DNA of 64,000 bases from a phage: the NCBI GenBank assembly GCA_012813795.1, contig GCA_012813795.1_4087.1; one strand, given 5' to 3'. Positions 3,600 to 34,304 of the stretch are shown piece after piece. The notes beneath the pieces were generated by a model that saw only the letters and a list, made by a program, of their open reading frames with translations, made no database searches and was not told the DNA's origin. Made by a program: the position numbers and the translations under genes. Positions within the stretch are counted from its first letter, which is position 1; each line of letters starts with the position of its first letter.

Positions 3600-4100
3600 T
3601 TACGACACAGCGTTTTCGTAATATTCTATTGCTTCCGAGATATTTTGAATTGCCTGTGCCTTTAATGATTTGTTATAGCGACCAGTAAATGAACCTAAAT
3701 TCTTAATGAGATCAAGAAATAATGGAAGTACTTCAGATGTATCAGTAAAATCACACTGATATAAAGTTCCCATCTGGAACAATTCACCGCCGTCTACGCA
3801 CAACGTGTTAAAGTCTTTTTGTACTCCCTTTTCTTCATTGAAAATGAAATACGAAGTCCCCATGTGGTGAAGATAAACACCATGTTCATCCTGAACGTGG
3901 CAGGGGGTAATACACATCGCCGTATTGTCAATATTATTTACTATCGTCAAACGGAGGCTATGTAATCCGAAAACTACAGTACTATTGAGTGTACTGCATT
4001 GTAAATGGTCATTGGTGATAGTAACTTTACTTGTCCTTTTGTCATCGAATGAACGTGTAATCAAAGAAATGCAAAGTTTCATATCAGTTGTTAGTTTCAT
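3600..4100 (-). CDS. FamA paralog
   Basis: 166 aa; motif GGELFQMGTLYQ. Confidence 0.65.
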   Translation of the reverse strand: MKLTTDMKLCISLITRSFDDKRTSKVTITNDHLQCSTLNSTVVFGLHSLRLTIVNNIDNTAMCITPCHVQDEHGVYLHHMGTSYFIFNEEKGVQKDFNTLCVDGGELFQMGTLYQCDFTDTSEVLPLFLDLIKNLGSFTGRYNKSLKAQAIQNISEAIEYYENAVS

Positions 4101-4542
4101 CCAAAATACCCTTAATATGTTTGATTAAATTGACTAGTACTGATTTATCAAATGGATTATTTAGACCAATACACTCGTACTGGAATAAGTCACCATCAAG
4201 AATAACATCTAAATCAATATCTAACTTCTTATTGTTGGTATCAAACATAGTAACATTATCAGAAGAAACTGTCAACACTTTTTGTGAATTTTTAATCTTA
4301 TTACTGATATAAACATCAATAAGTAATTTACTGTTCACTGTAACCGTTTCAAAGATGATTTGACTAGTACCGTAAATGTATTTTACTGAATTATGTATTC
4401 GTGAATATTTTAATTTGTATAAATTAATACCATTGTACTTACATTTGGTATCAATTTTTAATTTGCATGATAAGATAGCATTAACTAATTCATTTATATT
4501 AGTTAATCTTGTTTTGGCTATCGATAAAGTTGGTAAATTCAT
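4084..4542 (-). CDS. FamA paralog
   Basis: 152 aa; motif DGDLFQYECIGL; start uncertain (44-nt overlap with upstream gene). Confidence 0.6.
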   Translation of the reverse strand: MNLPTLSIAKTRLTNINELVNAILSCKLKIDTKCKYNGINLYKLKYSRIHNSVKYIYGTSQIIFETVTVNSKLLIDVYISNKIKNSQKVLTVSSDNVTMFDTNNKKLDIDLDVILDGDLFQYECIGLNNPFDKSVLVNLIKHIKGILDETNN

Positions 4543-4963
4543 TATGTAATACCTTTAGGCATTGTAATGTTTCTGACATGATATTTGAATCGAACTCAAT
4601 ACTATCAAATTTGATAAATGTACTTTGTGTGAAGAAGGTAGATTCCACATCGGTTGAATAAAATGATTCATCAAAGAGATTAGTACTGAACATACCAGTT
4701 TTCTTTTTAAAGAACATCATAAATTTTGAATTATAACGAATGACGGCTTCATCTTTATTAATGATTATACGAGAAATCTGTGTTCTCGTTTGGGTGAGAA
4801 TATTGATTTGGAAAACATTTTTCTTAACTTCAACAATATCAACCATATAACCATCCCCACTATAAAAGTTACTTCTAACTTGGATTGGCTTTGATGTGAT
4901 ATTGATAATAGCGTCTTGAATAAAAAAGTTTACCGTATCAATGTTTCCTAAAATGTCTAACAT
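4499..4963 (-). CDS. FamA paralog (divergent)
   Basis: 154 aa; motif STFFTQSTFIKF. Confidence 0.55.
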   Translation of the reverse strand: MLDILGNIDTVNFFIQDAIINITSKPIQVRSNFYSGDGYMVDIVEVKKNVFQINILTQTRTQISRIIINKDEAVIRYNSKFMMFFKKKTGMFSTNLFDESFYSTDVESTFFTQSTFIKFDSIEFDSNIMSETLQCLKVLHNEFTNFIDSQNKIN

Positions 4964-5481
4964 AAATTCTCCTTAATAGCTGTCATATTTACGAGAAATT
5001 CTTCAAGTACTTCCTCTGTAATACGCTCTGTATACCAGAATATCACAATATCTTTTGAAAGACGAACATTCATAAAAATATCTACTAACTCTCTGTAGTA
5101 CTCTAGAGTTTCTAGATCTTTTAGAATTAATGAGTACTGAAACATAGATTCTTCAGTTAACTTAAATTCTGGATATAGTAATTCGTTAAATTCAATTGAT
5201 TCAATCTGTACTTTTATTTCTTTGAAGTTATTGGTTATACAACCTGAATAATTATTTCGGTACAACGCGGCATAATCCAGGAATTGTGCTTTGTGATTAA
5301 AATCAAGAACAGTTTCACCTTTATATGACAATCGGTGGAACGCCGAGAACCTTGTAATTTCCCACGGTTGCTTAATATCTAGTTCTGTAATATCAATTTG
5401 ATTGTGCATAAGATCTGTGAAAATCTCACCAATCTTTAATAGTAACTTAGTACGTACCAGTACTGTCATTGGATCAGTCAT
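4957..5481 (-). CDS. FamA paralog
   Basis: 174 aa; motif EESMFQYSLIL. Confidence 0.65.
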   Translation of the reverse strand: MTDPMTVLVRTKLLLKIGEIFTDLMHNQIDITELDIKQPWEITRFSAFHRLSYKGETVLDFNHKAQFLDYAALYRNNYSGCITNNFKEIKVQIESIEFNELLYPEFKLTEESMFQYSLILKDLETLEYYRELVDIFMNVRLSKDIVIFWYTERITEEVLEEFLVNMTAIKENLC

Positions 5482-5900
5482 TATACACCTTCATATTCAT
5501 CAAGAAAATCTTCGATAATCATTTCAGCTTCATCCATATGCATAGCATCAACTTCAACAATACGAACTTTAGATGTATCCCAAATCATATAACTAGGAAC
5601 ATTGTCCGGCTCGTATTCATTTTTGTACTGAACTGCATCGTAACCTTCAGTATCACAATACTCAATAAGTGATCGCCATTCGTCATCACTACCCAAATCC
5701 TCACACAGAAGCACGTTATCAACGTCAACTTCTAATACATGCAAGTACACTGTGTCAGCATCAACAACGTTCAGTGGGCTTCTCAGCTTGCGTAATGCAG
5801 CCTCAAGAGCACTATGCTTCCCTCCCATATGCAAACCACCATACGGAATGTAGAAGTTGTCAATTTTAACAGTACTTGCATGGTATAGAATCATCATCAA
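5481..5900 (-). CDS. hypothetical protein
   Basis: 139-aa minus ORF; no FamA motif. Confidence 0.6.
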   Translation of the reverse strand: MMMILYHASTVKIDNFYIPYGGLHMGGKHSALEAALRKLRSPLNVVDADTVYLHVLEVDVDNVLLCEDLGSDDEWRSLIEYCDTEGYDAVQYKNEYEPDNVPSYMIWDTSKVRIVEVDAMHMDEAEMIIEDFLDEYEGV

Positions 5901-6496
5901 TCCTCAGTGAGAATACAGTTCAGGTACGAACACAGTTCATCGTAAAAGAGTTTGTCCAGCACTGTAAGATAACAGATACCGTTCTCTTTCATTGCAGCCT
6001 GTATTTTATCATAACCATTCACTGTGTCAAGGATTTCTTGATAAGATAATGCATCATCGTTAACAGTACTGCTCTGGAATGCCATTTCTTCTATGTTATC
6101 GATGGGTTCCTCATCGGAATTTAAGAAGCCTCCATTTTGATATATAATGTAATCTTCATTCCATGATTTAGTGAAACGGAGCAGGATGGGTTCATTAGCG
6201 AACATTTCGATATCGCCACTTTCAATGTCGTATGAACAATATAGATTACAGTCTTCATCTATGAATTCTGCCATAAAGATTGCAGTTCGAGAACCATCAT
6301 ATACATAAACTCCAGTTTTGTTCATCTCAACATCAACTGCCATTCCATTTTTGAATTGCATTCGAATCGTGATTTTAAGACTTTGGAGTATGTTATTTTC
6401 TGTATCTTTAACACTATACAATCCACGATATCGTAACCACAAATCTTTGATAGTACTTAAAGAAATGATTAAGTCTTCATTGGGATCTTTTTTCAT
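5897..6496 (-). CDS. FamA paralog
   Basis: 199 aa; motif EEMAFQSSTVND. Confidence 0.65.
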   Translation of the reverse strand: MKKDPNEDLIISLSTIKDLWLRYRGLYSVKDTENNILQSLKITIRMQFKNGMAVDVEMNKTGVYVYDGSRTAIFMAEFIDEDCNLYCSYDIESGDIEMFANEPILLRFTKSWNEDYIIYQNGGFLNSDEEPIDNIEEMAFQSSTVNDDALSYQEILDTVNGYDKIQAAMKENGICYLTVLDKLFYDELCSYLNCILTED

Positions 6497-7098
6497 TCTG
6501 GAATTACCATGTCCGTAATTAATGTGGGCTGTTCAATACATTCAGGGTTAATAACAATGAACATTTTACGTAAACTTTTCACTTTGTACCAATCATTCAG
6601 TACTGAAACCATCAGCCACAATTCTTCTGGTGTAGTGGTAACTTCACCGAGTACACTCATTTGAAACAAAGCACCCTTGCAATCTTCAAGTGAAGTCAGT
6701 TTTGTTTTGTATCCTGATTCAACATCCATGAATGTTTTTGTCTTAGCATCGTATACGATGTACACACCCTTACCATCATCTAAAGTTAAAAATACCGGAG
6801 AGCCAGTGCTAAATTTACATTCATTAAACTCAGGAAACAGGTCATTAACTTCTTCATCTGGAACTTCTGTCAATTCCAGTGCTGAATAGTCAGTATAGAT
6901 ATTAGTAATCTCAATACTATATTTGTTGTACCAAGTCGCAAATGGTGTAGATTTACCTTTTTTGAATAATTTAAAATCACTTTTTGAACCGTACTTTTGG
7001 AATAGTTCTTTTTTAGCTTTAACTAAATCAGGGGCAATAGCTAATAAATCACGTAGTGCTTTTTCGTATTGTAAGTATTCTTTTCTGATATTACTCAT
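6493..7098 (-). CDS. FamA paralog
   Basis: 201 aa; motif KGALFQMSVLGE. Confidence 0.65.
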   Translation of the reverse strand: MSNIRKEYLQYEKALRDLLAIAPDLVKAKKELFQKYGSKSDFKLFKKGKSTPFATWYNKYSIEITNIYTDYSALELTEVPDEEVNDLFPEFNECKFSTGSPVFLTLDDGKGVYIVYDAKTKTFMDVESGYKTKLTSLEDCKGALFQMSVLGEVTTTPEELWLMVSVLNDWYKVKSLRKMFIVINPECIEQPTLITDMVIPE

Positions 7099-7630
7099 TG
7101 TAACCCTCTAAAAAATAATCTAATGTATCAAGTACATCACTATCAAAAAAGCAATTATTAACTACAACGATACCAGTATTATGTTCTAAATCATAACATT
7201 TATCCAGTACATTGATGCATTCATTGTACTCAATGATATCATGAAGAGTACTGTGCTGAAAGTGTTCTTCTTCAGTGTACTCGCAGTAATTAATATCAAC
7301 ACTGAACGATTGGTCGTTTCTTTTGCACGGATATAATTTAGTAGACTTTCGTCCAGACCATGTAATTGAATAACAACCAATCGAATTCTGTGGGATTTGT
7401 GTACCAGCATGAAGCATAATGTACAGAGCTTGCGAACTGTATGATTCAACGTACAAACGGTTCTTATCTGCATTCATAACACAACCATCAATTGACATGC
7501 TTAGTGAATGTGACATTCTACTGGCTTTCCTGATACCACGGCAGAAATTCACATAACGCTGGCGTAAGCTGTTAACTTTCTCAGGCCATAGCTCAAATTC
7601 TTTAGTATTTGATAATGTTGCAATGTGCAT
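7091..7630 (-). CDS. FamA paralog
   Basis: 179 aa; motif EEEHFQHSTLHD. Confidence 0.65.
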   Translation of the reverse strand: MHIATLSNTKEFELWPEKVNSLRQRYVNFCRGIRKASRMSHSLSMSIDGCVMNADKNRLYVESYSSQALYIMLHAGTQIPQNSIGCYSITWSGRKSTKLYPCKRNDQSFSVDINYCEYTEEEHFQHSTLHDIIEYNECINVLDKCYDLEHNTGIVVVNNCFFDSDVLDTLDYFLEGYNE

Positions 7631-8236: not shown

Positions 8237-8740
8237 TCATAATTCTCTTAGTTTTTTCAATACATAGTGTAGTACTTCATCTTCATTTGCATACGATGTG
8301 TACATGAGAAATTTGCAACAAGTACTGTTAAGATAGCACATGTAGGTGAACATTGCACTATAATTATTCACAGTACTGTTCTGAAATTCAACTTCATCAA
8401 TTTCACCCAATGATACAGGTCGCATGTTGCAATCTACACCATCAATTTTTACAACAGTAGTTCCTGGATGAAAGACTGCGGATTGTGAACCTATGGTGCT
8501 TGTATCGAAACTTGGTGCATCATAGATAGGACTATTGCTATCAAAGAGCATGAAAATGTCATGGTCTAAACCTCTTTTCTGCTCAAATACAACTCGGATC
8601 ATACCATCTTTTTGTATTTTAAGAATAATATCTGGAGCCAGTTCGAATCGACCATATTGTTCATTGATATATTTTTCTTCAAGAATTTTATGTAATTCCA
8701 CAAAGTCTTTAGTACTAAAGTGTTCCATCATATCCCTCAA
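8237..8740 (-). CDS. FamA paralog
   Basis: 167 aa; motif EVEFQNSTVNN. Confidence 0.65.
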   Translation of the reverse strand: MRDMMEHFSTKDFVELHKILEEKYINEQYGRFELAPDIILKIQKDGMIRVVFEQKRGLDHDIFMLFDSNSPIYDAPSFDTSTIGSQSAVFHPGTTVVKIDGVDCNMRPVSLGEIDEVEFQNSTVNNYSAMFTYMCYLNSTCCKFLMYTSYANEDEVLHYVLKKLREL

Positions 8741-9173
8741 CTAATTTTGTAATTTCTGCTCTTCGTACATCAATGTCATGAGCAAATGATATGGATGTGA
8801 AACCACGTTCTGCTGCAATGGCTCGCAACTGTAGGAGAAGTAATAACGGATATATCACTTCATCAGAATACAAAGTACTTAATTGAAATATGGTTGCTTC
8901 ATCAATCTCAGTACTTAAATCTATACTTTTAATATCAATGATTAACTGTGTATTGAAATACCATACATTGTCATTGACATAATCTATAGTAGTATTATCC
9001 ATTACACTATAATCAATGTATCTTTCATTTGACCATAATGTCATCATATCATCGCCGTCTGATGGATAGCTTACATCAAACCATGAACCTGATTTTCGAG
9101 CTTTACCATTATCCAGTTCATTGAGGCAGTACTGGATTAACTTTTTCAGTAATTCGTAATCGTCTTTATTCAT
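8715..9173 (-). CDS. FamA paralog
   Basis: 152 aa; motif EATIFQLSTLYS. Confidence 0.65.
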   Translation of the reverse strand: MNKDDYELLKKLIQYCLNELDNGKARKSGSWFDVSYPSDGDDMMTLWSNERYIDYSVMDNTTIDYVNDNVWYFNTQLIIDIKSIDLSTEIDEATIFQLSTLYSDEVIYPLLLLLQLRAIAAERGFTSISFAHDIDVRRAEITKLVEGYDGTL

Positions 9174-9651: not shown

Positions 9652-10205
9652 TGGATTGCCTTAATATGTTCAATCATTGCCTTGGAGTTAGTACTCATGT
9701 ACTCAAATATATCATCATTCATGAGTTCTGTCAAGTTCAATTCAACCGTACATCCATCTGGTAAGTTCTTCTGACAGAACGGAGCCAGTACTGCACCGTA
9801 CAGTACATACGGATCATCAATAATTAAACTCTTCTGGAAGCAATCACAATCCATATCTTCTTCATTATCGAAGTAAGTACTGATATCTATTGCAGTACTA
9901 TCTTTACACATCAACTCTACATCACCTTTTTTAATTACTACACGCTTTGTCTTGGTATTGCGTAATCGGGTGTATTCTTTTATGTGTCGTTGTTGTGTAT
10001 TGATTTCAATGATATCTTTGTGGTTGTGCGTTATTGTGAAGTGCATATCATTATTCAAATCACCACTCAGAAAAAAATTAAGATCTCTTAGTACAGTGTG
10101 ATTGACTTTAATGTATTCACCTTCACGAATTAAACTCAGTGCAGCTACACAATCTTCAATGAACTTCTCAAGAAACTTTCCTCTACTGTAAAGACTATAT
10201 TTCAT
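9645..10205 (-). CDS. FamA-like (divergent)
   Basis: 186 aa; degenerate motif DDIFEYMSTNS. Confidence 0.55.
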   Translation of the reverse strand: MKYSLYSRGKFLEKFIEDCVAALSLIREGEYIKVNHTVLRDLNFFLSGDLNNDMHFTITHNHKDIIEINTQQRHIKEYTRLRNTKTKRVVIKKGDVELMCKDSTAIDISTYFDNEEDMDCDCFQKSLIIDDPYVLYGAVLAPFCQKNLPDGCTVELNLTELMNDDIFEYMSTNSKAMIEHIKAIQC

Positions 10206-11941: not shown

Positions 11942-13354
11942 TTATTTCACGTTAAAAATCGAAGTGGCTTTTTGTAAAGCATGTACTTCAGACTGTTGAT
12001 TGTCTACCATCATCATTGTGTCCTTTACATGCTCCGCATTTTGCTGTACTGAACGGTCCATCATATTAACACTCTCAGTAACCTGAAGGATTGCAATACT
12101 TTGTTGTTCAGCCATTATAGCTAAATCATCAATGAACTGCAAGAGTGAATCAACATTTTTTACAATAGAATCAATATCACTTGCAGTTTCGTTGATTTGT
12201 TCTATTACTTGGTTGTTGTTTTTTACGGAGTTATCAACGATTTCTTTAATTTCTTTACTACATGCATCACATTTCATTGCTAAGTTACGAACTTCCTGTG
12301 CAACAACAGAGAATCCACGTCCATGTTCACCCGCTTTAGCAGCTTCAATACTGGCATTTAAAGAAAGAATATTAGTCTGGAAAGCAATAGTTTCTATATT
12401 TTTGAGTATAGCAACTATAGCATTAGAATCTTCTTTAATTCTATCCATCTGCTCTTTGCAATTATTGATACTTTCAATTGCATTAGTACTGGATTCTTTT
12501 GTAGTTTTAACCATACTTTTTGCAGTATTGGAGTTATCAGATGTATTTGCAGATGTAGCACTTAATTCTTCCATAGCAGCAGCGATTTGAGTAAGTGCCT
12601 GTCCTTGTGTTTCAGTTCTGAAAGCTAAATCATTACTTTTACTTTCGAGATGATAGGAGTTGCTTTTCATTGACTGAACTGTAATTTGTACTTGTTCAAT
12701 TGCCTCACGCATAGCTGATATTGTTTTACTAAAAGTCTGTGCAAATTCGGAGTTGAAATGATTATTTTGTATTTCTAAAGTAATATTGCCGTCTTCAGAA
12801 TTCACTGATCTTGCAATTCGTTGAATTTCATCTGCTTCATTTGCATCTTTCTCCATAATGTACGCAACGTACATCAGAACTATTGCCTGAACTACTACAT
12901 ATATTGCGTGCTCTATAATGTGCCATAACGAAATATGGTGAAAAGAAAACACAAATAATATTGGAATTCCAGCACCCTGTAACAATCCAAATAATAAATG
13001 ATGTATAGCAATCAGTACTGAACCTGCTAATACACAACGCCAGTCACGCCATACAATCAATAAACTTAAAAAGATAAAAACTGTAAAGTGCCATTCCACC
13101 ATCCCTACACCAAGATGTATTAGTAACGCACTCCAGCACATCACATTTATACTTAACAACGTTCGAGTGAATGCATTACTTTCAACAAATAGTAAAGGAG
13201 TTAGCATTACTAATAATAAAACTGCACCGATTAGTGCAATAATAAAACTACCATGAACAACACCGGAAACTAAAGTAGCAGCAAATAAAGCCCCTATACA
13301 ACATAGTACTAAATTATCGGCTTTTTTGCGTATATTTTCTAAATTACTTTTCAA
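11942..13354 (-). CDS. methyl-accepting chemotaxis protein (MCP)-like polytopic membrane protein
   Basis: 470 aa; N-terminal half has several hydrophobic helices; C-terminal half carries the MCP signalling-domain signature [37 protein letters not shown] (canonical chemoreceptor hairpin-tip motif); no periplasmic sensor or HAMP domain evident. Confidence 0.8.
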
Positions 13355-15162: not shown

Positions 15163-15166
15163 TCAA

Positions 15167-22556: not shown

Positions 22557-22592
22557 TGTAACACAGTACAGGCTCTTGTCAATAGCATGAAC

Positions 22593-26316: not shown

Positions 26317-26883
26317 TTACCCCTTTTCCGCGTCCTTATCAAACACGTACTGTATGTACTGAAGCATTGCAACGAGATCAATATCACGGTCAAATCTCAA
26401 CGTTAACTTCTCCGTTAACTCCCCGAAGGTATCATAATAATGCTTAACAAAATAACGATATCGTATTGAATTATAATCGTGCAATGTACTGTACTGAAAC
26501 ACTACATCAGGACTATATGGCATCAAATCTATAAGCTCACTTACTTTTAATTTCTCATTTTCGCCATTATTTTTAACTGTTATATATTCATTTGAACTGA
26601 ACCATGCACATGATACATCTGAACAAATTGATGTTGTACTGTAAAATCTATCTGTACTCACAAATAATACACTATGTGATTTGTTGGATTTTCTTTCGTA
26701 AATCGATAAATCCGACATAAGCGTAATGATTGGTTCGTGACGAAATTTATCATGCTGGTACGTTTCCTGAAACGCATTCGGATTTTTGTAAATCCTATCT
26801 ACAATTAAATACAACCCCTTGATGTATTCTAAATCATCTTCTATCGCTTTGCATGTACTTTCTATGTCCTGAAGGTCCAGCAT
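26317..26883 (-). CDS. FamA paralog
   Basis: 188 aa; motif PDVVFQYSTLHD. Confidence 0.65.
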   Translation of the reverse strand: MLDLQDIESTCKAIEDDLEYIKGLYLIVDRIYKNPNAFQETYQHDKFRHEPIITLMSDLSIYERKSNKSHSVLFVSTDRFYSTTSICSDVSCAWFSSNEYITVKNNGENEKLKVSELIDLMPYSPDVVFQYSTLHDYNSIRYRYFVKHYYDTFGELTEKLTLRFDRDIDLVAMLQYIQYVFDKDAEKG

Positions 26884-27419
26884 TACTCCCCCTTAATCTC
26901 TTTGAGATCTTTTACTAACCTATCGTACCACGTTAAAGCTAAAAAGAAATTCGTTTTCACATTAGCACGTAATACATTATATACTTGCTGCACCTGTAAA
27001 ACATAAGGATCTTGTACTAAGGACTCCTGAAAATATTCTTCAGGACTCAGGATGTTAGGATTCAAGGTTGCAATATCAACGTGCTTTGTTAAACCAAAAA
27101 AGGTTTCTTCCTCTCTCTTGCTCATATCCAAATAACGAATCCAATTCACTGGAGCGAACTCTTCAGATGCTGATGTAGCCGATGTAATAGCATTGAACAA
27201 AAGACAATACTCTAACTGCATCTTCTCACCTACAGCGTGCATTACCGTATCTCTCCTGTAATACACAATAGAGGGATACTTTTCAATATCGCTCTTAGGC
27301 TCAAGCCATCCTTCCTTGTGCTTAGGATAGATGTGGTCAAAATCCCCAGCCTCAAACGCCTGTACGATTTTTACTAAATTGTCAGCGAACTCGTACTCAA
27401 AATGTTTGTGCTGGATCAT
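26883..27419 (-). CDS. FamA paralog
   Basis: 178 aa; motif PEEYFQESLVQD. Confidence 0.65.
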   Translation of the reverse strand: MIQHKHFEYEFADNLVKIVQAFEAGDFDHIYPKHKEGWLEPKSDIEKYPSIVYYRRDTVMHAVGEKMQLEYCLLFNAITSATSASEEFAPVNWIRYLDMSKREEETFFGLTKHVDIATLNPNILSPEEYFQESLVQDPYVLQVQQVYNVLRANVKTNFFLALTWYDRLVKDLKEIKGE

Positions 27420-27471: not shown

Positions 27472-28110
27472 TTATAACACAATCTCTTTTAACTTCAAAA
27501 TGAAATCTTCATATACTTTTATCTGAAAATGCGGACTCTGTGCACTGAAACTAAACCCATGTTCAATCAATTTCTTGTACTCATTCGCATATTTGCACAA
27601 CTTCAGGATTTCGGTAGGGTCCACCATATCCTTCTGTACTAAGGACATTTGAAAAAGCACTTCCTCTACACCCTCGTACTCTTGCCCTGCAATGTAACAT
27701 ATGTCATCTTCTAACGATAATGATATGAACGTCTTTGTACTTATTGCATTACCATCTTTTGAAACACCATAATCTGCAACTGAATCCACAAAGGAATCCG
27801 GCTTAGATGAACCTGCTATGTCGCAAATGTACTTGTCAATGTATGTGATGTTATTGTTGTTATCGAATATACCAAATGCTAATGACGTGTCAAATACTTC
27901 CCTGAAACCAATTCTGTCACTACCGATAACTAAAACTAATTTACCACAGGATGCACTGTATCTGGATGCGGAATCAAATGGAATCTCCAATTTTGAATTC
28001 TCAGGGAAAATAGCATTGAACTTCTTTAGCATTTCAAACATATAAGGAACATGAGGCTCCATGAACTTCATCACCTCATACGGTGAAGCATTTCTGGGAA
28101 AATTATTCAT
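27472..28110 (-). CDS. FamA paralog
   Basis: 212 aa; motif EEVLFQMSLVQK. Confidence 0.65.
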   Translation of the reverse strand: MNNFPRNASPYEVMKFMEPHVPYMFEMLKKFNAIFPENSKLEIPFDSASRYSASCGKLVLVIGSDRIGFREVFDTSLAFGIFDNNNNITYIDKYICDIAGSSKPDSFVDSVADYGVSKDGNAISTKTFISLSLEDDICYIAGQEYEGVEEVLFQMSLVQKDMVDPTEILKLCKYANEYKKLIEHGFSFSAQSPHFQIKVYEDFILKLKEIVL

Positions 28111-28627
28111 AGGTTTTTACCCTTAAATTTTCGAAATCCCATACATCGCTGATTGTACCCTCGTGTCTGTAATCATAATATTGTACTAAAACATTATACA
28201 ATAACTTCAACGATACAAATTCATGATTCCACGGAGCTTTATTCTCATGAACACATTTAGAGATATAAGGTATCATATATAAAGCAACCATCTCTAATGG
28301 TTCATGTACACATTGCTTTTGAAAATATTCTTCTTCTTGCATACAATGCTCAGGAATAATTAGATCATCATGTTTACCGAAGACATATGAACCTACTGTG
28401 TATTTTTTCACATCGCAAGCGAACCATATTGTACTATCCGAAACAAATGGAATGATACCATTATTGTTTGCAATGTACATCATATGGTAAGAGCTATTTG
28501 GCTTGTTAAATACCTCTATACTTTTAATATTACTACAAATCGCGTATTCAATACAATCAATAATCTTATCTTTAAATGCACCAATTTCATTGAATGTCAT
28601 TGCTTTCTGTATTGTTGAACTGCTCAT
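28103..28627 (-). CDS. FamA-like
   Basis: 174 aa; motif EEEYFQKQCVHE. Confidence 0.6.
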   Translation of the reverse strand: MSSSTIQKAMTFNEIGAFKDKIIDCIEYAICSNIKSIEVFNKPNSSYHMMYIANNNGIIPFVSDSTIWFACDVKKYTVGSYVFGKHDDLIIPEHCMQEEEYFQKQCVHEPLEMVALYMIPYISKCVHENKAPWNHEFVSLKLLYNVLVQYYDYRHEGTISDVWDFENLRVKTYE

Positions 28628-29148
28628 ATGTTCTCCTTAAAAAAATCCAAATACTCTTCATTGAAAGCATAGGTATCATCTTTTTTGTTATGCACAATGT
28701 AATCATAAAGAGCAATGAATGCAGGGATTATGATCTTACATGATTTATTATTGTATTTGTGCTGCTCCAAATCAACGGTGTTCAATTTAGCAATAAGCAT
28801 AGCAGCAAAGATATCTTCATGGTGGTGTACTGTGCTGTACTGAAAATATTCATCCTCTCCAATATCGGGTTGATTTAATTGTATATCCAAATAATCATGC
28901 TCATTGGACCTTGTTATATTATATCTTTGTAATGCGACTGAATGCATGAACCACAATCTATCTTCTTTGAAATATGGAAAAATCGTTTGTTCTGTGCTAA
29001 CAAAAATTTCCTCATTTTTATCATATTTCACAAGAGGTGCATACATTTTATTTTTTGATGCACTAATAATTAAATTAAAAATATAATGAACCTTATACAC
29101 TGCACTTGATGCATCTTCGTATGTACTTGGGATCATGAAACTCGCCAT
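28624..29148 (-). CDS. FamA paralog
   Basis: 174 aa; motif EDEYFQYSTVHH. Confidence 0.65.
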   Translation of the reverse strand: MASFMIPSTYEDASSAVYKVHYIFNLIISASKNKMYAPLVKYDKNEEIFVSTEQTIFPYFKEDRLWFMHSVALQRYNITRSNEHDYLDIQLNQPDIGEDEYFQYSTVHHHEDIFAAMLIAKLNTVDLEQHKYNNKSCKIIIPAFIALYDYIVHNKKDDTYAFNEEYLDFFKENI

Positions 29149-29228
29149 AAATGTCTCCTTTAAAATGAATACACATGATAACAGCTTTGGTCTTCTATGT
29201 CAATACCAAAACAAAAAAAGCCCATATC

Positions 29229-29726: not shown

Positions 29727-30058
29727 AATAAAATAATCTCAACTAAAGCAAGAACTGTATTGAATTCAAAACACCCTGTGATTCCTTGAATGCTCATGTA
29801 CTTTGCTATTACATATTTCTGTACTAAATTATCATTCTTCTTGAATTCATCAAACGCATCATTACAACGTGTCATGTATTCTGTACTCAAAAATATCTTA
29901 TGCATCTCTAATGCACTCTGATAATATGCGTACAACTCACGAATATCTATACTACGCAAATCACTTTGTTCGTACTTATGATACGGAATAGCTTCAATTT
30001 CAATATTATAAAACCATTCTGTTAACTTATTAATATCAAATGTATTATTCAGCTTCAT
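29696..30058 (-). CDS. hypothetical protein
   Basis: 120-aa minus ORF; no FamA motif. Confidence 0.55.
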   Translation of the reverse strand: MKLNNTFDINKLTEWFYNIEIEAIPYHKYEQSDLRSIDIRELYAYYQSALEMHKIFLSTEYMTRCNDAFDEFKKNDNLVQKYVIAKYMSIQGITGCFEFNTVLALVEIILLCKNVKWNLV

Positions 30059-30623
30059 AACTCAATATCTCCATTAAGCACTCATAAACACCATCAATCG
30101 CATAAGCACAAAAATTGAAATTAATTTTGTGATTCTTGTGTAATGGACTATTGTGTACTGTACTCAACATAACACTATAAAACAAAGAACGTTCATGGGT
30201 AAATAATGATTCCTGAAAAAATGCTTCCTCTGATTTAATTTTATTATATTCAATCGGTTGATCATTAGAATAAAATGAATCTTGATTTGAATTGTACCAT
30301 GTGCAATCCAAATCATTCTTTGATATAACTGGTGTTGGATTAAACTGTAAAAGACTAATAACACTACGGGCATTCGGTGTATCAGGTGTATTGAATCGTT
30401 TGTCAAAATGACGTGTGCACGCAATATGTGAATCAAAATCAGATGGTTTAAACCCTATGCACGCGTTAATGATTCTTGTATATGGTTTTTTATTATGTGC
30501 TGCTTTCTGTACATTATATAAGGCTGCAACAATACAAGCTAACTTTTGTCCCATAAGGATTGCATTAGCATAGGTGTACTGAATATCCTTACTTTCATTA
30601 TACTCATTGTACTTCGAGGTCAT
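30045..30623 (-). CDS. FamA paralog
   Basis: 192 aa; motif EEAFFQESLFTH. Confidence 0.65.
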   Translation of the reverse strand: MTSKYNEYNESKDIQYTYANAILMGQKLACIVAALYNVQKAAHNKKPYTRIINACIGFKPSDFDSHIACTRHFDKRFNTPDTPNARSVISLLQFNPTPVISKNDLDCTWYNSNQDSFYSNDQPIEYNKIKSEEAFFQESLFTHERSLFYSVMLSTVHNSPLHKNHKINFNFCAYAIDGVYECLMEILSYEAE

Positions 30624-30912
30624 AATATTTCCTTTCCCATTCGGTTACATGTGCATTAAAATTCATAACAGCTTTCTGTATCTTTTTTAATAATAACACA
30701 TCATATCCACCTGTGTCAATCACTAATTGCTGTTGAAACAATTCTTCGTCGGATAATGTATTGAAATCTACAAAATAATCTGTGACTTCGTTATCATTTA
30801 AATGTGCCATGTACCAACCTGAACTACATGAATAAATCAAATTCCAACCGTCTTCATCGCCTTCTAATTCAACATAAATCATATCTTTGGTATAGAGCAT
30901 TCTATACTTCAT
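30604..30912 (-). CDS. FamA-like (short)
   Basis: 102 aa; motif DEELFQQQLVID. Confidence 0.6.
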   Translation of the reverse strand: MKYRMLYTKDMIYVELEGDEDGWNLIYSCSSGWYMAHLNDNEVTDYFVDFNTLSDEELFQQQLVIDTGGYDVLLLKKIQKAVMNFNAHVTEWERKYYDLEVQ

Positions 30913-31983: not shown

Positions 31984-32372
31984 TTAATAGGGTATTCCGT
32001 TTCATTTACTACATACGACATAATCCATCCGTAATGGATAGGATGATATTTGTCTGAATCAGGAATAAAATATAAAGCTGTACTGGGATTATAACTGAAG
32101 AAATCCCTCTCGTCAAATGTTAATCTGGCTAACTTAATTTTCCTTGGAATTGCATGAGGACGAACTGTATTCTTTACACAGAATATACCATCCTTGTATT
32201 TTGGTACTATAACATCCAATGCACTCTGGATTAACTCCTGAAAGACTAAATTGATTTGTGCAAATGAATCCTTCTTGTTATGCATTTCGTGCCATAAATC
32301 TCGTCTTGCATTTAACATCATTATTACTGGTCTAAGATCCTGTACTACTGTTAGATTCTGCATTGTATTCAT
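31971..32372 (-). CDS. hypothetical protein
   Basis: 133-aa minus ORF. Confidence 0.55.
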   Translation of the reverse strand: MNTMQNLTVVQDLRPVIMMLNARRDLWHEMHNKKDSFAQINLVFQELIQSALDVIVPKYKDGIFCVKNTVRPHAIPRKIKLARLTFDERDFFSYNPSTALYFIPDSDKYHPIHYGWIMSYVVNETEYPIKWER

Positions 32373-32589
32373 TTATCTCATTCTGTAACTTAACAACCAA
32401 AATTTGCGTATGAATTTTTCGTTCAAGGTGCTTGATAAATTTCTGTACCATTTCTTCTTGTACTGATGTACCAAGATAAAATAACATATTAAATTCCGAT
32501 AATCGCAAAGCAAAATCTTCATCGCCCCCTTGTAAACAAAAATCCCTGTACTTTGATGCGTACAAATGATGGTTTACATTTTTGTACAT
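32332..32589 (-). CDS. FamB paralog
   Basis: 85 aa; motif MLFYLGTSVQEEMV. Confidence 0.6.
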   Translation of the reverse strand: MYKNVNHHLYASKYRDFCLQGGDEDFALRLSEFNMLFYLGTSVQEEMVQKFIKHLERKIHTQILVVKLQNEINEYNAESNSSTGS

Positions 32590-32792
32590 TTAGACTCCTT
32601 TGGTGTGCATACTATCTCTGTTCGTAAAGCCCTTATGTATGCATCAACAAATTGTGGCTGTGCTCTCGTTCCTAGATAAAATAATAAATCGAACTCTGCC
32701 ATTTTAACATTAAAAGGATCTGAATCTACATTTCGAATAAAATGTCTGTACTTCAATTCATATCCGTTAGGCATCTTCTTGTATACTATCAT
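32574..32792 (-). CDS. FamB paralog
   Basis: 72 aa; motif LLFYLGTRAQPQFV. Confidence 0.6.
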   Translation of the reverse strand: MIVYKKMPNGYELKYRHFIRNVDSDPFNVKMAEFDLLFYLGTRAQPQFVDAYIRALRTEIVCTPKESKCTKM

Positions 32793-33102
32793 ATTCTATA
32801 CAATCACCTCTTTTAATCGAATCCCAAACTTCCTTCATCTTCTTCTGTAATGCAATCATAATATCTATATCAAACATATAAGGGTCATGAATTAGACTGT
32901 ACTGAAATAATTCATCTTCCTGCATAAGAGAAAGATCCTGAAGCAACTCGTACTTACCTAAACTCCTGGGACTCAAATAAGCAAAATATTCTTTACCGTC
33001 CTCAAAAACATAATGTACTTCATGATTCATGTACTTCTTGTAATTCTCATGCGTATAAGCAAATATACAACCGGAATTAATTCTATGAATGTTGAATTTC
33101 AT
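32767..33102 (-). CDS. FamA paralog (short)
   Basis: 111 aa; motif EDELFQYSLIHD. Confidence 0.65.
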   Translation of the reverse strand: MKFNIHRINSGCIFAYTHENYKKYMNHEVHYVFEDGKEYFAYLSPRSLGKYELLQDLSLMQEDELFQYSLIHDPYMFDIDIMIALQKKMKEVWDSIKRGDCIEYDSIQEDA

Positions 33103-33109
33103 ATATCCC

Positions 33110-33445
33110 CTATATTACAATTCTATGCACATCTTGAATGAAATGCTTTGGAAGATTACTATACGATATCATCTGCCTTTGTACTTCCTTCATTTCATTG
33201 AACGTAAATCCAAAAGAATCATCGTGTACTAAACTGTACTGAAACTCTTCTTCTTCAGAGATATCAACTAGATTCGGTACTGCAATCTTGTTTCCTGTGG
33301 ATTTTACACCGTCTACCCAATAGAAACAATTATCAACTTTATTGTACTCAAATACCTTAACCCCAGAACCGCTCTGGAAATTGGACAACGCAATGAAACA
33401 GATTTTATCTCTGACAATACAATTGAATTTACGTGTCATCTCCAT
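33110..33445 (-). CDS. FamA paralog (short)
   Basis: 111 aa; motif EEEFQYSLVHD. Confidence 0.65.
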   Translation of the reverse strand: MEMTRKFNCIVRDKICFIALSNFQSGSGVKVFEYNKVDNCFYWVDGVKSTGNKIAVPNLVDISEEEEFQYSLVHDDSFGFTFNEMKEVQRQMISYSNLPKHFIQDVHRIVI

Positions 33446-33681
33446 CTCTCTCCGTCATCGCAAGAGTACTGGTACGTTGTCGTTAGGGTAGGAACCATGT
33501 TTGTAATCGGCATGTTATTCACAATAACCGTTACGGGCATCATAACCGTCTCTTTTCTACTCTGTCCTGTCTTTGTGCAATTCATCTTGTGCATTTCATC
33601 TGAATCCAGATACGCTAATACAAACGGTGCAATCCCAAGAACAATACACAAGACGATAAGGAAATTTAAAAATTTTAACAT
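33436..33681 (-). CDS. small membrane-anchored protein
   Basis: 81 aa; N-terminal hydrophobic segment FLNFLIVLCIVLGIAPFVLAYL. Confidence 0.55.
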   Translation of the reverse strand: MLKFLNFLIVLCIVLGIAPFVLAYLDSDEMHKMNCTKTGQSRKETVMMPVTVIVNNMPITNMVPTLTTTYQYSCDDGERWR

Positions 33682-33719
33682 AATCTGTACCCTATGATTA
33701 ACGTTAGTGTACTATAGCA

Positions 33720-33950
33720 CTACATTAGAGTACTGTCAACTGCTTTGTTCTCTATTATGCTCATTAAACCCCAAATTAGATAACGAACACTATCAGCTTG
33801 ATAGTTAGTACCTACTGTGCATTTTAAAATTAACTCATCTTTCAGTACTGCACGTTCTTCTTGGGGTATAGGAAGAGAATTTATTTGTTGTATTTGTGGT
33901 TGTAAAGTATTAATAAGCTTACAGTACTCTTCGAATGATAATCTTTTCAT
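33720..33950 (-). CDS. FamB paralog
   Basis: 76 aa; motif CTVGTNYQADSV. Confidence 0.6.
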   Translation of the reverse strand: MKRLSFEEYCKLINTLQPQIQQINSLPIPQEERAVLKDELILKCTVGTNYQADSVRYLIWGLMSIIENKAVDSTLM

Positions 33951-33962
33951 GGTTCAGTACTC

Positions 33963-34304
33963 TTAATACTCAATAATGTGTTCTTCATAAGCATCACGAG
34001 GCTCCTGTTTAGTTTCTTTCATTAGTACTATCATTTTATGTACTAAGGGCATAGGAAACTCTAAATCCCATACTAATGATTCCTGAAAGTATTCCTCTTC
34101 TGATAAAGTACTTAAATCTTCAATGTCAATGTGTTCGTACATATTATTTTCGTAATTAGCAAAAGATATATATAAACCTCCTGTGGAACTGTAAGTAACT
34201 GTGAATGGCGTACCCTTGTAGTCCATTACATCTTTACATAGACTACTTTTGATGTATATATTTTCATACGATATGTATACCTTGAGTTGAATATTAGTTT
34301 TCAT
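33963..34304 (-). CDS. FamA paralog (short)
   Basis: 113 aa; motif EEEYFQESLVWD. Confidence 0.65.
   Translation of the reverse strand: MKTNIQLKVYISYENIYIKSSLCKDVMDYKGTPFTVTYSSTGGLYISFANYENNMYEHIDIEDLSTLSEEEYFQESLVWDLEFPMPLVHKMIVLMKETKQEPRDAYEEHIIEY

What the first reader, a model, noticed from the sequence alone, without database searches (positions are those of the whole stretch)
3600..34304. Array of ~50 diverged paralogs united only by a TEV-site-like peptide motif (FamA)
About 52 consecutive minus-strand genes of 100-280 aa have almost no similarity except one mid-protein motif, acidic-x-x-[YF]-F-Q-x-S-[TL]-[VLI]-x-[DNE] (e.g. DENYFQNSLIYN, EEMYFQNSLLYT, EEYYFQQSTVYT). The residue after Q varies (M, N, L, E, Q, Y, H, S), so conservation is at the protein level. 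The motif resembles the potyviral NIa/TEV recognition site ENLYFQ/S with one residue inserted before Ser. Outliers lie at 55..894 and 61869..62540. A linear motif held constant in hypervariable scaffolds suggests a shared interaction or processing site, for example a protease or chaperone docking site, or an anti-defence decoy family. I do not recognise this family.
Basis: partly seen in the sequence, partly recalled or inferred. Interest (0 to 1): 0.9.

Follow-up and report, generated by a model that had tools for sequence, protein, structure and literature searches.

The report
Jumbo-phage early gene family, FQxS motif
A giant E. coli virus carries about 46 very different copies of one small gene in a row, all keeping the same short "EE--FQ-S" stretch; this is a real, undescribed family with no known fold. 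It is probably switched on first during infection, and its resemblance to a protease cutting site is most likely a coincidence.

Summary
The window comes from an Asteriusvirus-type jumbo coliphage (98% identical to phage A4).

- **Family size.** An unbiased HMM finds 46 minus-strand paralogs of 102-223 aa: 45 in 3600..34304 plus 61869..62540. Three more are borderline. ORF 55..894 is not supported.
- **Divergence.** Median pairwise identity is 15.6%, yet all share [ST]-E-E-x-x-F-Q-x-S-[TL]-[VIL]-[YHW]-[DN].
- **Motif conservation.** F is kept in 138/138 and Q in 137/138 members from four phages of Escherichia, Klebsiella and Erwinia. Synonymous codons vary, so selection acts on the protein.
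- **TEV-site reading not supported.** Ser sits one residue out of register. AlphaFold2 places the motif in a short helix in the most confident part of a globular domain. No NIa/3C-like protease was found.
- **No known relatives.** The fold matches nothing in the PDB, and no Pfam or NCBIfam family matches.
- **Genomic setting.** The array lies just inside the terminal repeat and carries near-consensus sigma-70 promoters on the coding strand. Its homologues are absent from a relative's virion proteome.
- **Evolution.** Selection is purifying (pN/pS 0.22). The array is collinear between relatives, but positional orthologs are 22-94% identical.

Best reading: an early, non-structural multigene family of small acidic proteins. 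The motif is the keystone of the fold, and possibly also a shared functional site. The likely role is host takeover or anti-defence; that step is inferred, not shown.

The parts
3600..34304 (-). FamA array as a whole: 45 HMM-supported members, 3 borderline members and about 15 unrelated ORFs, all on the minus strand
3600..4100 (-). FamA gene, 166 aa; motif DGGELFQMGTLYQ (motif DNA 3756-3794)
   Evidence: family HMM 45.9 bits
4084..4542 (-). borderline FamA member, 152 aa; degenerate motif LDGDLFQYECIG
   Evidence: HMM E 0.005, aligned through the motif
4499..4963 (-). borderline FamA member, 154 aa; degenerate motif VESTFFTQSTFI
   Evidence: HMM E 0.03
4957..5481 (-). FamA gene, 174 aa; motif TEESMFQYSLILK
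   Evidence: HMM 54.1 bits
5897..6496 (-). FamA gene, 199 aa; motif IEEMAFQSSTVND
   Evidence: HMM 40.6 bits
6493..7098 (-). borderline FamA member, 201 aa; motif CKGALFQMSVLGE
   Evidence: HMM E 0.05-0.13, exact FQxS present
7091..7630 (-). FamA gene, 179 aa; motif TEEEHFQHSTLHD
   Evidence: HMM 64.6 bits
7633..8235 (-). FamA gene, 200 aa; motif SEEWYFQNTLIHS
   Evidence: HMM 58.2 bits
8237..8740 (-). FamA gene, 167 aa; motif IDEVEFQNSTVNN
   Evidence: HMM 41.4 bits; weakest in leave-one-out, E 0.003
8715..9173 (-). FamA gene, 152 aa; motif DEATIFQLSTLYS
   Evidence: HMM 72.1 bits
9645..10205 (-). FamA gene, 186 aa; motif MDCDCFQKSLIID
   Evidence: HMM 62.6 bits
10202..10780 (-). FamA gene, 192 aa; motif IEEELFQLSTMYS
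   Evidence: HMM 55.3 bits
10758..11330 (-). FamA gene, 190 aa; motif REAYLFQLSLLPG
   Evidence: HMM 64.1 bits
11314..11925 (-). FamA gene, 203 aa; motif LEEQNFQSSVTHD
   Evidence: HMM 63.6 bits
13982..14533 (-). FamA gene, 183 aa; motif DDGVLFQYSTLYD
   Evidence: HMM 55.7 bits
14530..15162 (-). FamA gene, 210 aa; motif SEESFFQYSLLYE
   Evidence: HMM 47.2 bits
15167..15781 (-). FamA gene, 204 aa; motif LDETLFQYSLIHN
   Evidence: HMM 69.1 bits
15756..16262 (-). FamA gene, 168 aa; motif TDENYFQNSLIYN
   Evidence: HMM 64.6 bits
16272..16742 (-). FamA gene, 156 aa; motif NEEMYFQNSLLYT
   Evidence: HMM 77.1 bits
16739..17221 (-). FamA gene, 160 aa; motif TEETHFQLSLIYT
   Evidence: HMM 77.5 bits
17209..17640 (-). 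FamA gene, 143 aa; motif LPDELFQYSLVCP
   Evidence: HMM 37.9 bits
17640..17978 (-). FamA gene, short form, 112 aa; motif SEEELFQMSTAFE
   Evidence: HMM 47.0 bits
17962..18465 (-). FamA gene, 167 aa; motif SEEDYFQLSTTMN
   Evidence: HMM 85.8 bits; only phage A4 has a close ortholog
18465..18962 (-). FamA gene, 165 aa; motif DECEYFQYCTIYS
   Evidence: HMM 76.3 bits
19019..19555 (-). FamA gene, 178 aa; motif TEELFFQMSTVDD
   Evidence: HMM 69.2 bits
19558..19896 (-). FamA gene, short form, 112 aa; motif SEEELFQESLVWE
   Evidence: HMM 53.8 bits
19896..20309 (-). FamA gene, 137 aa; motif LEEEFFQESTVWD
   Evidence: HMM 44.3 bits; 94% identical to a phAPEC6 member at a non-collinear position
20808..21356 (-). 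FamA gene, 182 aa; motif NEESVFQLSTVYN
   Evidence: HMM 60.5 bits
21987..22556 (-). FamA gene, 189 aa; motif FEEQMFQLSCTDD
   Evidence: HMM 62.8 bits
22593..23039 (-). FamA gene, 148 aa; motif TDEGYFQLSTVLN
   Evidence: HMM 64.7 bits
23045..23500 (-). FamA gene, 151 aa; motif SEEYYFQQSTVYT; the member modelled with AlphaFold2
   Evidence: HMM 93.0 bits; pLDDT 83, pTM 0.79, motif in helix 105-111
23500..23943 (-). FamA gene, 147 aa; motif TEEYYFQQSLIFN
   Evidence: HMM 89.4 bits
23940..24410 (-). FamA gene, 156 aa; motif SEEFYFQQNTIYE
   Evidence: HMM 86.1 bits
24412..24894 (-). FamA gene, 160 aa; motif SEEYYFQQSTVYN
   Evidence: HMM 90.9 bits
25078..25404 (-). FamA gene, short form, 108 aa; motif YESFIFQESLVWD
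   Evidence: HMM 34.2 bits
25760..26116 (-). FamA gene, short form, 118 aa; motif DEATLFQESLVFD
   Evidence: HMM 50.9 bits
26317..26883 (-). FamA gene, 188 aa; motif SPDVVFQYSTLHD
   Evidence: HMM 63.2 bits
26883..27419 (-). FamA gene, 178 aa; motif SPEEYFQESLVQD (labelled 'DNA ligase' in phage A4, probably wrongly)
   Evidence: HMM 87.1 bits; no Pfam match; A4_348
27472..28110 (-). FamA gene, 212 aa; motif VEEVLFQMSLVQK
   Evidence: HMM 56.1 bits
28103..28627 (-). FamA gene, 174 aa; motif QEEEYFQKQCVHE
   Evidence: HMM 55.6 bits
28624..29148 (-). FamA gene, 174 aa; motif GEDEYFQYSTVHH
   Evidence: HMM 50.2 bits
29229..29726 (-). FamA gene, 165 aa; motif TPELWFQYSTLYE
   Evidence: HMM 48.4 bits
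30045..30623 (-). FamA gene, 192 aa; motif SEEAFFQESLFTH
   Evidence: HMM 55.8 bits
30604..30912 (-). FamA gene, short form, 102 aa; motif SDEELFQQQLVID
   Evidence: HMM 34.7 bits
30902..31417 (-). FamA gene, 171 aa; motif CSAELFQKSLLYS
   Evidence: HMM 64.7 bits
32767..33102 (-). FamA gene, short form, 111 aa; motif QEDELFQYSLIHD
   Evidence: HMM 35.8 bits
33110..33445 (-). FamA gene, short form, 111 aa; motif SEEEEFQYSLVHD
   Evidence: HMM 47.3 bits
33963..34304 (-). FamA gene, short form, 113 aa; motif SEEEYFQESLVWD; second AlphaFold2 model
   Evidence: HMM 54.4 bits; pLDDT 67, motif in helix 69-78
61869..62540 (-). FamA outlier, 223 aa; motif SEEELFMYSTVID (Q replaced by M). It lies beyond the terminal-repeat block
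   Evidence: found by the seed HMM that did not contain it; leave-one-out E 2.8e-4
33711..33739 (-). sigma-70-like promoter, 11/12 with TG, 30 nt upstream of an ORF start
32088..32116 (-). sigma-70-like promoter, 11/12
30690..30719 (-). sigma-70-like promoter, 11/12 with TG, 67 nt upstream of the start of 30045..30623
29175..29203 (-). sigma-70-like promoter, 11/12 with TG, intergenic, 27 nt upstream of the start of 28624..29148
27866..27893 (-). sigma-70-like promoter, 11/12 with TG (inside a gene)
22555..22582 (-). sigma-70-like promoter, 11/12 with TG, in the gap upstream of 21987..22556
18994..19022 (-). perfect sigma-70 consensus promoter TTGACA-17-TATAAT with TG, intergenic, 32 nt upstream of the start of 18465..18962
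13931..13959 (-). sigma-70-like promoter, 11/12 with TG, intergenic
9706..9734 (-). sigma-70-like promoter, 11/12 with TG
6003..6030 (-). sigma-70-like promoter, 11/12 with TG

Best explanation
FamA is one ancient multigene family of small, acidic, cytoplasmic, non-virion proteins found in RaK2-like jumbo phages. Each genome carries 30-46 copies in a same-strand array just inside the terminal repeat. The copies share one alpha/beta domain that has no detectable relative among solved structures.

The conserved string [ST]-E-E-x-x-F-Q-x-S-[TL]-[VIL]-[YHW]-[DN] is not a free linear peptide. It is a short helix plus the turn leading into the next helix, at the centre of the domain. The pattern reads as an N-cap Ser/Thr, two acidic residues in the first helical turn, an invariant Phe-Gln, a Ser at the helix end, two hydrophobic residues, and a capping Asp/Asn for the following helix. 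It therefore acts as the keystone of the fold, and possibly also as a shared functional patch, while the rest of the surface is free to diverge.

The genes are probably transcribed early by host sigma-70 RNA polymerase from the end of the genome that is likely to enter the cell first.

I infer that the copies form a library of binding proteins, each directed at a different host target: defence effectors or host-takeover targets.

**Shown:** family membership, the motif statistics, protein-level selection, the predicted helical context, the lack of known homologues, the promoter enrichment, absence from a relative's virion proteome, purifying selection, and collinear but highly diverged arrays.

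**Inferred:** early timing, the first-entry position, and the binder, anti-defence or takeover function.
For: - **Family and motif:**
- **Protein-level selection:** both Ser codon families are used.
- **Structure:** the AlphaFold2 model has pLDDT 83 and pTM 0.79, with the motif in helix 105-111 at pLDDT 96-97. A second, weaker model of a short member also places the motif in a helix. Independent BFVD models of 121Q and RaK2 homologues superpose on it (TM 0.6-0.8).
- **Stand-alone only:** in 1.84 billion representative proteins, the 148 real hits are all 65-212 aa. The one 4098-aa hit is spurious, so there are no domain fusions.
- **Early expression:** 32 near-consensus sigma-70 promoters lie on the coding strand, against 3 on the other strand and 2.4 expected. 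Ten of them are in the array. The CBB and PA5oct papers assign the homologous terminal regions to early transcription.
- **Position:** the array follows the terminal repeat in Klebsiella phage Muenster and in ELP-22.
- **Not structural:** no gp400-459 appears in the phAPEC6 virion proteome table.
- **Charge:** median pI 4.8 and median net charge -10.
- **The genes are functional:** pN/pS is 0.22 against phage A4, compared with 0.19 for neighbouring genes.
- **Arms-race-like pattern:** the array is collinear with that of phAPEC6, but positional orthologs are 22-94% identical while interspersed non-family genes are 80-92% identical. A 14-kb block has no DNA match in other Asteriusviruses, whereas the flank is 88-92% identical.
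Against: - No member has any tested function, and none resembles a known anti-defence protein.
- Strict invariance of polar Gln and Ser over genus-level divergence is more than fold stability usually demands. It suggests a shared biochemical activity or a shared partner, which a pure 'library of different binders' does not explain.
- Copy number and gene order are stable between phages (46 against 42, collinear). An accessory anti-defence arsenal would be expected to show more gain and loss.
- I had no model coordinates, so whether F, Q and S are buried or exposed was not measured.
- Early timing rests on promoter consensus and on papers about related phages, not on expression data for this phage.
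Confidence: 0.5

Rival explanations
1. Common-partner docking (adaptor family). The invariant EE-F-Q-S face of the motif helix is an exposed docking surface. It ties every paralog to one conserved partner, either a host hub such as RNA polymerase, a chaperone or an AAA+ protease, or a phage enzyme. The variable remainder of each protein selects a different client. This is the logic of poxvirus ankyrin/PRANC proteins.
For: - F is kept in 138/138 members, Q in 137/138 and S in 120/138 across three host genera, although the rest of the protein is near-random.
- The motif sits at a fixed distance of about 40-75 aa from the C-terminus, while the N-terminal part varies from 59 to 180 aa.
- On a helical wheel, E(-4), the hydrophobic residue at -1, F and S(+3) fall on one face, and E(-3), Q and T/L(+4) on the adjoining face. 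This is my inference from the secondary structure.
- The invariant Gln prefers the codon CAG (32/45 against 40% elsewhere in the same genes, p=2e-4). That would fit selection for accurate translation at a critical residue.
Against: - No partner is known.
- The pattern of capping residues and hydrophobic residues is also what a purely structural helix-turn-helix corner would show.
- Forty-six proteins competing for one partner need a rationale.
- There are no fusions or neighbouring conserved genes that point to a partner.
Confidence: 0.2
2. Processing site. The motif is cleaved after Gln by a Gln-specific (3C/NIa/TEV-like) protease, or is otherwise modified at Gln.
For: - E at P6, F at P2 and Q at P1 match ENLYFQ. 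About 14 of 46 window members read [ED]-x-x-Y-F-Q.
- The unrelated neighbouring small-protein family also has an invariant aromatic-Gln, L-G-T-N-Y-Q. This could be coincidence.
Against: - Ser is at P2', not P1'. P1' is bulky (Y, L, E, Q). Tyr at P3 is present in only 39/138 members.
- The motif is helical and lies in the best-predicted core of the domain in two models.
- The TEV protease has no tblastn match in 50,697 phage records.
- The only proteases named in the papers I read on relatives are a prohead core scaffold/protease (phAPEC6) and a ClpP-like subunit and M23 peptidase domain (CBB).
- Purifying selection acts on both halves of the proteins.
Confidence: 0.03
3. Self-assembly family. 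The conserved motif is the interface through which the paralogs associate with each other. They would form mixed oligomers or a larger intracellular assembly during infection.
For: - Copy number and gene order are stable across phages.
- All copies are co-transcribed in one direction, often with overlapping stop and start codons.
- One conserved surface in otherwise divergent subunits is typical of hetero-oligomer families.
Against: There is no evidence of oligomerisation. The proteins are absent from the virion. The idea could not be tested with the tools available.
Confidence: 0.07
4. Small enzyme family. E, E, Q and S form a catalytic or ligand-binding site. The paralogs would act on, or sequester, different small molecules or nucleotides.
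For: Identity-level invariance of polar residues. The proteins are acidic and Tyr-rich.
Against: - No similarity to any enzyme family or fold.
- The Ser is replaced by G, T, C, N or Q in about 13% of members.
- The minimal members are only about 100 aa.
- Forty-six enzymatic paralogs in one operon would be without precedent.
Confidence: 0.05

Closest known systems
Potyviral NIa/TEV protease recognition site ENLYFQ|S/G
   Same: The string E-x-x-[Y]-F-Q is present in roughly a third of members. An acidic residue at P6 and Gln at P1 are almost universal.
   Different: Ser is shifted to P2'. P3 is Leu as often as Tyr. The motif is predicted to be helical inside a folded domain. No cognate protease was detected. 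The host is a bacterium.
Terminal multigene families of large eukaryotic DNA viruses (ASFV MGF360/505/110, poxvirus ankyrin/PRANC proteins); from my own knowledge
   Same: Tandem arrays of dozens of diverged paralogs lie next to the terminal repeats. They are probably expressed early, are non-structural, and are highly variable between close strains. A conserved module sits within an otherwise variable protein.
   Different: There is no sequence or fold relationship. This is a bacterial virus. A host-range or immune-evasion function is not shown here. Copy number and gene order are unusually stable.
Early host-takeover regions of large phages (CBB ORFs 390-546, genes in the PA5oct terminal repeat; SPO1 and T5 from my own knowledge)
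   Same: Clusters of small genes of unknown function at or next to terminal repeats, driven by strong host-type promoters.
   Different: Those regions are described as collections of mostly unrelated small genes. The CBB paper reports only 22 paralogous ORFs in the whole genome. Here a single family supplies about 46 genes and 22.9 kb.
T4-type internal proteins with a capsid-targeting sequence; from my own knowledge
   Same: Hypervariable proteins that share only one short conserved sequence, which in T4 is a protease site.
   Different: The T4 signal is N-terminal, is cleaved by the prohead protease after Glu, and the proteins are packaged. The FamA motif is internal and helical, and phAPEC6 homologues are absent from the virion proteome.
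Polyimmunity arrays of polymorphic-toxin immunity proteins (SUKH and Imm families); from my own knowledge
   Same: Tandem arrays of small, very diverged alpha/beta paralogs. Their conserved residues hold the fold, while their surfaces bind different targets.
   Different: There is no Pfam match to SUKH or Imm families. No toxin genes are adjacent. The setting is the early region of a lytic phage.
PHROG families of unknown function (phrog_12674, 9317, 13866, 34017, 15629 and about 28 others)
   Same: Window members match these profiles strongly, down to E 5e-139.
   Different: PHROGs splits what is one superfamily into at least 33 separate families, none of them annotated.

Membership tests
TEV/NIa-type cleavage site | Consensus E-x-x-Y-x-Q followed directly by Ser/Gly at P1' | tested here: not met
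   Across 138 members P1' is Y37, L29, E17, Q14 and others. Ser (120/138) is at P2'. Tyr at P3 occurs in only 39/138.
TEV/NIa-type cleavage site | Site lies in an exposed, extended or disordered segment | tested here: not met
   AlphaFold2 places the motif in helix 105-111 at pLDDT 96-97. It is in helix 69-78 of a second model. These are predictions only.
TEV/NIa-type cleavage site | A cognate Gln-specific 3C/NIa-like protease is available | tested here: inconclusive
   tblastn with the TEV protease against 50,697 phage records gave no match at E<=1. The papers on CBB and phAPEC6 name only a prohead core scaffold/protease, a ClpP-like subunit and an M23 peptidase domain. The full genome of this phage was not scanned with profiles.
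TEV/NIa-type cleavage site | Cleavage products observed | not testable with these tools
   Needs mass spectrometry of infected cells.
Any curated protein family (Pfam-A, NCBIfam, PADLOC) | Profile match above threshold | tested here: not met
   All 46 members were scanned. Only isolated single-member hits at E about 1e-3 appeared.
PHROGs unknown-function families | Profile match | tested here: met
   33 PHROGs were matched, all of 'unknown function'.
T4-type internal proteins | N-terminal targeting sequence and packaging into the virion | tested here: not met
   The motif is 59-180 residues from the N-terminus. No gp400-459 is listed in the phAPEC6 virion proteome table.
Terminal multigene families of large DNA viruses (analogy only) | Tandem paralog array adjacent to the terminal repeat | tested here: met
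   In Muenster the array follows a 20,030-bp terminal repeat. In ELP-22 the block homologous to window 39.6-59.8 kb is present at both ends of the record, and FamA starts at 27.5 kb.
Terminal multigene families of large DNA viruses (analogy only) | Early expression | tested here: inconclusive
   Near-consensus sigma-70 promoters: 32 on the coding strand, 3 on the other, 2.4 expected. Literature on CBB and PA5oct agrees. There are no expression data for this phage.
Terminal multigene families of large DNA viruses (analogy only) | Role in host range or immune evasion | not testable with these tools
   Needs genetics.
Polyimmunity (SUKH/Imm) arrays | SUKH/Imm domain, and linkage to toxin genes | tested here: not met
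   No such Pfam hits. No toxin-like neighbours were seen in the window.

The most novel reading that the evidence does not exclude
RaK2-like jumbo phages carry a bacterial-virus counterpart of the terminal multigene families of poxviruses and ASFV. It would consist of about 45 early proteins of a previously unseen fold. Their single invariant helix (EE-x-x-FQ-x-S) would plug every copy into one conserved host or phage hub, while the diverged remainder of each copy captures a different host defence or housekeeping protein. The result would be a modular adaptor library for host takeover.
Probability: 0.15. Interest if true: 0.85.

Novelty: new variant of a known kind. Interest (0 to 1): 0.6.

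Why it matters
About 23 kb of the window, roughly 6% of a 355-kb genome, is spent on one family that nobody seems to have described as such. The databases split it into more than 30 'unknown' groups.

The family is conserved as an array across Escherichia, Salmonella, Klebsiella and Erwinia jumbo phages. It has no fold relative among solved structures. It sits where phages and plasmids tend to keep their first-strike genes.

If the copies are binders of host defence or takeover targets, the array is a ready-made catalogue of some 45 candidate inhibitors per phage. The invariant motif also gives a simple handle for finding more.

On the practical side, several members contain a near-TEV site. 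That matters to anyone expressing them with TEV-cleavable tags.

Tried and rejected
- **tblastn with the HMM consensus** found nothing, probably because of low-complexity masking.
- **A repeat of the search for homologous proteins** at a looser E-value returned the same 25 close relatives and added nothing.
- **P0076.** The one long hit in the exhaustive search (4098 aa, 8 stretches) is a secreted repeat protein matching only 'GIIEEVSFMNGTLQ'. I rejected it as spurious.
- **Single-member Pfam hits** to DUF4467 (cystatin-like) and DUF3213 at E about 1e-3 were treated as noise.
- **A nucleotide-level element.** I considered whether the motif reflects a DNA or RNA signal. This is rejected because Ser uses both codon families and F and Q use both synonymous codons. 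A CAG preference at the Gln remains unexplained.
- **Pseudogene decay.** I considered whether the divergence reflects decay. This is rejected because pN/pS is 0.22, the same as for neighbouring genes.
- **ORF 55..894** as a family member: not supported by the HMM.
- **Relation between FamA and the neighbouring small-protein family:** none by hhalign.
- **Complete E. coli RefSeq genomes** contain no copy of the array.

Full report
**What the window is.** Megablast of 14000-20000 gives 98.5% identity over its full length to Escherichia phage A4, a 355,528-bp Asteriusvirus. Other Asteriusviruses (121Q, PBECO4, phAPEC6, G17 and others) match only 112 bases of that stretch. G+C is 31-36% across the array, and almost all ORFs are on the minus strand.

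**Checking the observation.**
- A six-frame scan finds exact FQxS 41 times in the 63 minus-strand ORFs of 3600..34304. Shuffles give 1.3 +/- 1.1.
- The family emerges without specifying the motif. All-against-all phmmer links 23 ORFs, and an HMM iterated from these converges on 46 members. These are 45 in the stated range plus 61869..62540.
- In a leave-one-out test all 46 score E<0.01, with a median of 29 bits.
- Three further ORFs (4084..4542, 4499..4963, 6493..7098) are borderline and carry degenerate motifs. ORF 55..894 is not recovered.
- The unbiased alignment gives [ST]-E-E-x-x-F-Q-x-S-[TL]-[VIL]-[YHW]-[DN], with F in 46/46, Q in 45/46 and S in 40/46.
- Median pairwise identity is 15.6%, and only 45 of 1035 pairs are detectable.
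- Without the motif columns, only 12/46 N-terminal and 9/46 C-terminal halves still score E<0.01.
- Weak fold-wide signals do exist: three Y/F positions, an N-terminal amphipathic helix and a C-terminal F-Y-x-D-L.
- Phe, Gln and Ser use alternative codons, including both Ser codon families, so selection is on the protein.
- Members are 102-223 aa. The motif Phe lies 41-88 residues from the C-terminus (43-70 in most members) and 59-180 from the N-terminus.

**Breadth of the family.**
- The window-trained HMM finds 42 members in phAPEC6, 30-31 in Klebsiella phage Muenster, an Alcyoneusvirus, 20 or more in Erwinia phage Hallingskeid, and 34 on a 24-kb metagenome contig.
- Over 138 members from the four phages, F is 138/138, Q 137/138, S 120/138 and E/D at -4 is 125/138.
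- An exhaustive HMMER pass over 1.84 billion representative proteins gives only 149 hits at E<=1e-3. All are 65-212 aa stand-alone proteins, apart from one spurious repeat protein. Nearly all carry the motif at the same distance from the C-terminus.
- The family is therefore rare, restricted to this phage clade, never fused to another domain, and always found in arrays.

**Structure.**
- AlphaFold2 on member 23045..23500, using the 46 paralogs as the alignment, gives pLDDT 83 and pTM 0.79. The model has an N-terminal helix, six short strands and then four helices with one short strand.
- The motif E105-E-Y-Y-F-Q-Q111 is a helix with pLDDT 96-97. S104 sits before it, and S112-T-V-Y-T116 leads into helix 117-131.
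- A short member (33963..34304) gives a weaker model (pLDDT 67). It has five strands followed by three helices, the first of which is the motif helix, and it lacks the N-terminal helix.
- Read against these models, the conserved residues look like an N-cap, acidic first-turn residues, a core aromatic, a residue at the helix end, two hydrophobics, and the N-cap of the next helix. This reading is my inference. I had no coordinates, so burial was not measured.
- The only structural neighbours are uncharacterised proteins of 121Q, SP27, RaK2, Serratia phage BF and GAP32 in BFVD.
- Pfam, NCBIfam and PADLOC give nothing. PHROGs splits the family into 33 'unknown function' groups.

**Genomic setting and expression.**
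- Near-consensus sigma-70 promoters (at least 11 of 12 matches) number 32 on the coding strand and 3 on the other, with 2.4 expected per strand. Ten lie within the array, mostly about 30 nt upstream of gene starts. One of them is a perfect TTGACA-17-TATAAT.
- Window 39.6-59.8 kb corresponds to a block present at both ends of the 373-kb linear record of phage ELP-22. FamA there begins 27.5 kb from the left end.
- In Muenster the array follows an annotated 20,030-bp terminal repeat.
- GC skew changes sign near 60 kb in the window.
- Papers on the related phages CBB and PA5oct assign the equivalent terminal regions to early, host-polymerase transcription.
- None of phAPEC6 gp400-459, which covers nearly all of the homologous array (gp404c-gp466c), is in that phage's virion proteome table.
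- The proteins are acidic, with median pI 4.8 and median net charge -10.

**Evolution.**
- Against phage A4, pN/pS is 0.22 for FamA and 0.19 for neighbouring genes. The genes are therefore maintained by purifying selection.
- Against phAPEC6 the arrays are collinear, yet positional counterparts range from 22% to 94% identity. Interspersed non-family genes are 80-92% identical.
- A 14-kb block (about 5.9-19.9 kb) has no megablast match in any other Asteriusvirus except A4. It matches Salmonella phages SD-15_S21 and SD-2_S15 in patches. The adjoining terminal-repeat region is 88-92% identical to many phages.
- The pattern fits old, very divergent haplotypes of the array that are exchanged by recombination, rather than recent runaway change.
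- Rough collinearity with Muenster suggests that the array predates the split of the genera.

**The TEV-site idea.**
- With Q as P1, the family has E at P6, F at P2, and Y or L at P3, so the resemblance is real as a string.
- However, Ser is at P2', P1' is usually bulky, and Tyr at P3 is present in only 28% of members.
- The motif is predicted to be helical in the folded core.
- The TEV protease, with its sequence recalled from memory, has no tblastn match in 50,697 phage records.
- The proteases named in the papers I read on relatives are a prohead core scaffold/protease, a ClpP-like subunit and an M23 peptidase domain.
- I rate cleavage at about 3%.

**What it most likely is.** FamA is an early, non-structural multigene family with a new fold, whose motif is the keystone of the domain. 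The function is inferred, not shown. The setting resembles other first-strike regions of phages and plasmids: the leading end of the genome, strong host promoters, an acidic charge, and hypervariability between relatives alongside purifying selection within lineages. The closest analogy is the terminal multigene families of large eukaryotic DNA viruses.

The main rival is that the invariant E-E-F-Q-S face is a docking site for a common partner. The absolute invariance of polar Gln, together with the Ser and acidic positions kept in about 90% of members, makes this a serious alternative. I could not separate the two readings without coordinates or experiments.

**Novelty.** I found no paper describing this family. 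The CBB paper counts only 22 paralogous ORFs in its genome. A comparative review of jumbo phages mentions a 35-copy zinc-ribbon expansion in phage G but not this family. I rate it a new variant of a known kind: a viral, lineage-specific multigene family in an early terminal region.

Noticed in passing
window 11942..13354 (-): A 470-aa protein with N-terminal membrane helices and a genuine methyl-accepting chemotaxis protein signalling domain (PF00015, E 1.6e-35) sits inside the array. It is present in phage A4 (A4_379) but has no counterpart in the phAPEC6 array. It is a phage-borne chemoreceptor homologue.
   Followed up: partly
window 32332..38282 (-), plus 21763..21990 and 33720..33950: A second tandem family of about 20 proteins of 70-87 aa has its own near-invariant motif L-G-T-N-Y-Q. 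It is unrelated to FamA by hhalign and also occurs in Klebsiella phage Muenster. Both families keep an aromatic-Gln pair.
   Followed up: partly
window 39600..59800: 21 near-perfect sigma-70 promoters (many exactly TTGACA-16-TATAAT) lie on the minus strand, almost one per small gene. The block is present at both ends of the linear ELP-22 record, so it is probably the terminal repeat. GC skew flips near 60 kb, which suggests the physical genome end is at about 59.8 kb.
   Followed up: partly
motif Gln codons of the 46 FamA genes (e.g. 23171..23173): The invariant Gln is encoded by CAG in 32/45 genes, against 40% CAG for other Gln codons in the same genes (Fisher p=2e-4). The Phe codon shows no such bias. 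This is unexplained.
   Followed up: partly
window about 2924..3085, compared with phage A4 61413..62214: Phage A4 has roughly 640 bp more here, containing a putative HNH endonuclease (A4_397) and a small ORF that the window lacks. This looks like a presence/absence polymorphism of a homing endonuclease. Window 948..1256 corresponds to another annotated HNH endonuclease (A4_402).
   Followed up: no
window 26883..27419 (-): This FamA member is annotated 'DNA ligase' in phage A4 (A4_348). It has the family motif and no Pfam match, so the label looks like an annotation error.
   Followed up: partly
database hits P0007, P0009, P0010, P0013, P0015, P0018, P0019, P0021: Close homologues are filed in NCBI as Escherichia coli proteins on contigs of 347-358 kb. 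Whole jumbo-phage genomes are therefore deposited inside E. coli assemblies. None is in the complete RefSeq E. coli set.
   Followed up: partly
window 3086..3559 and 20261..20911 (-): These two non-FamA ORFs are paralogs of each other (phmmer E<1e-3). They form another small family interleaved with the array.
   Followed up: no
L006 (metagenome contig), L004 (Hallingskeid), window 32767..34304: The arrays show a polarity. Short forms of about 110-125 aa, which lack the N-terminal helix, cluster at the promoter-proximal end. Long forms of about 170-200 aa lie further downstream.
   Followed up: no
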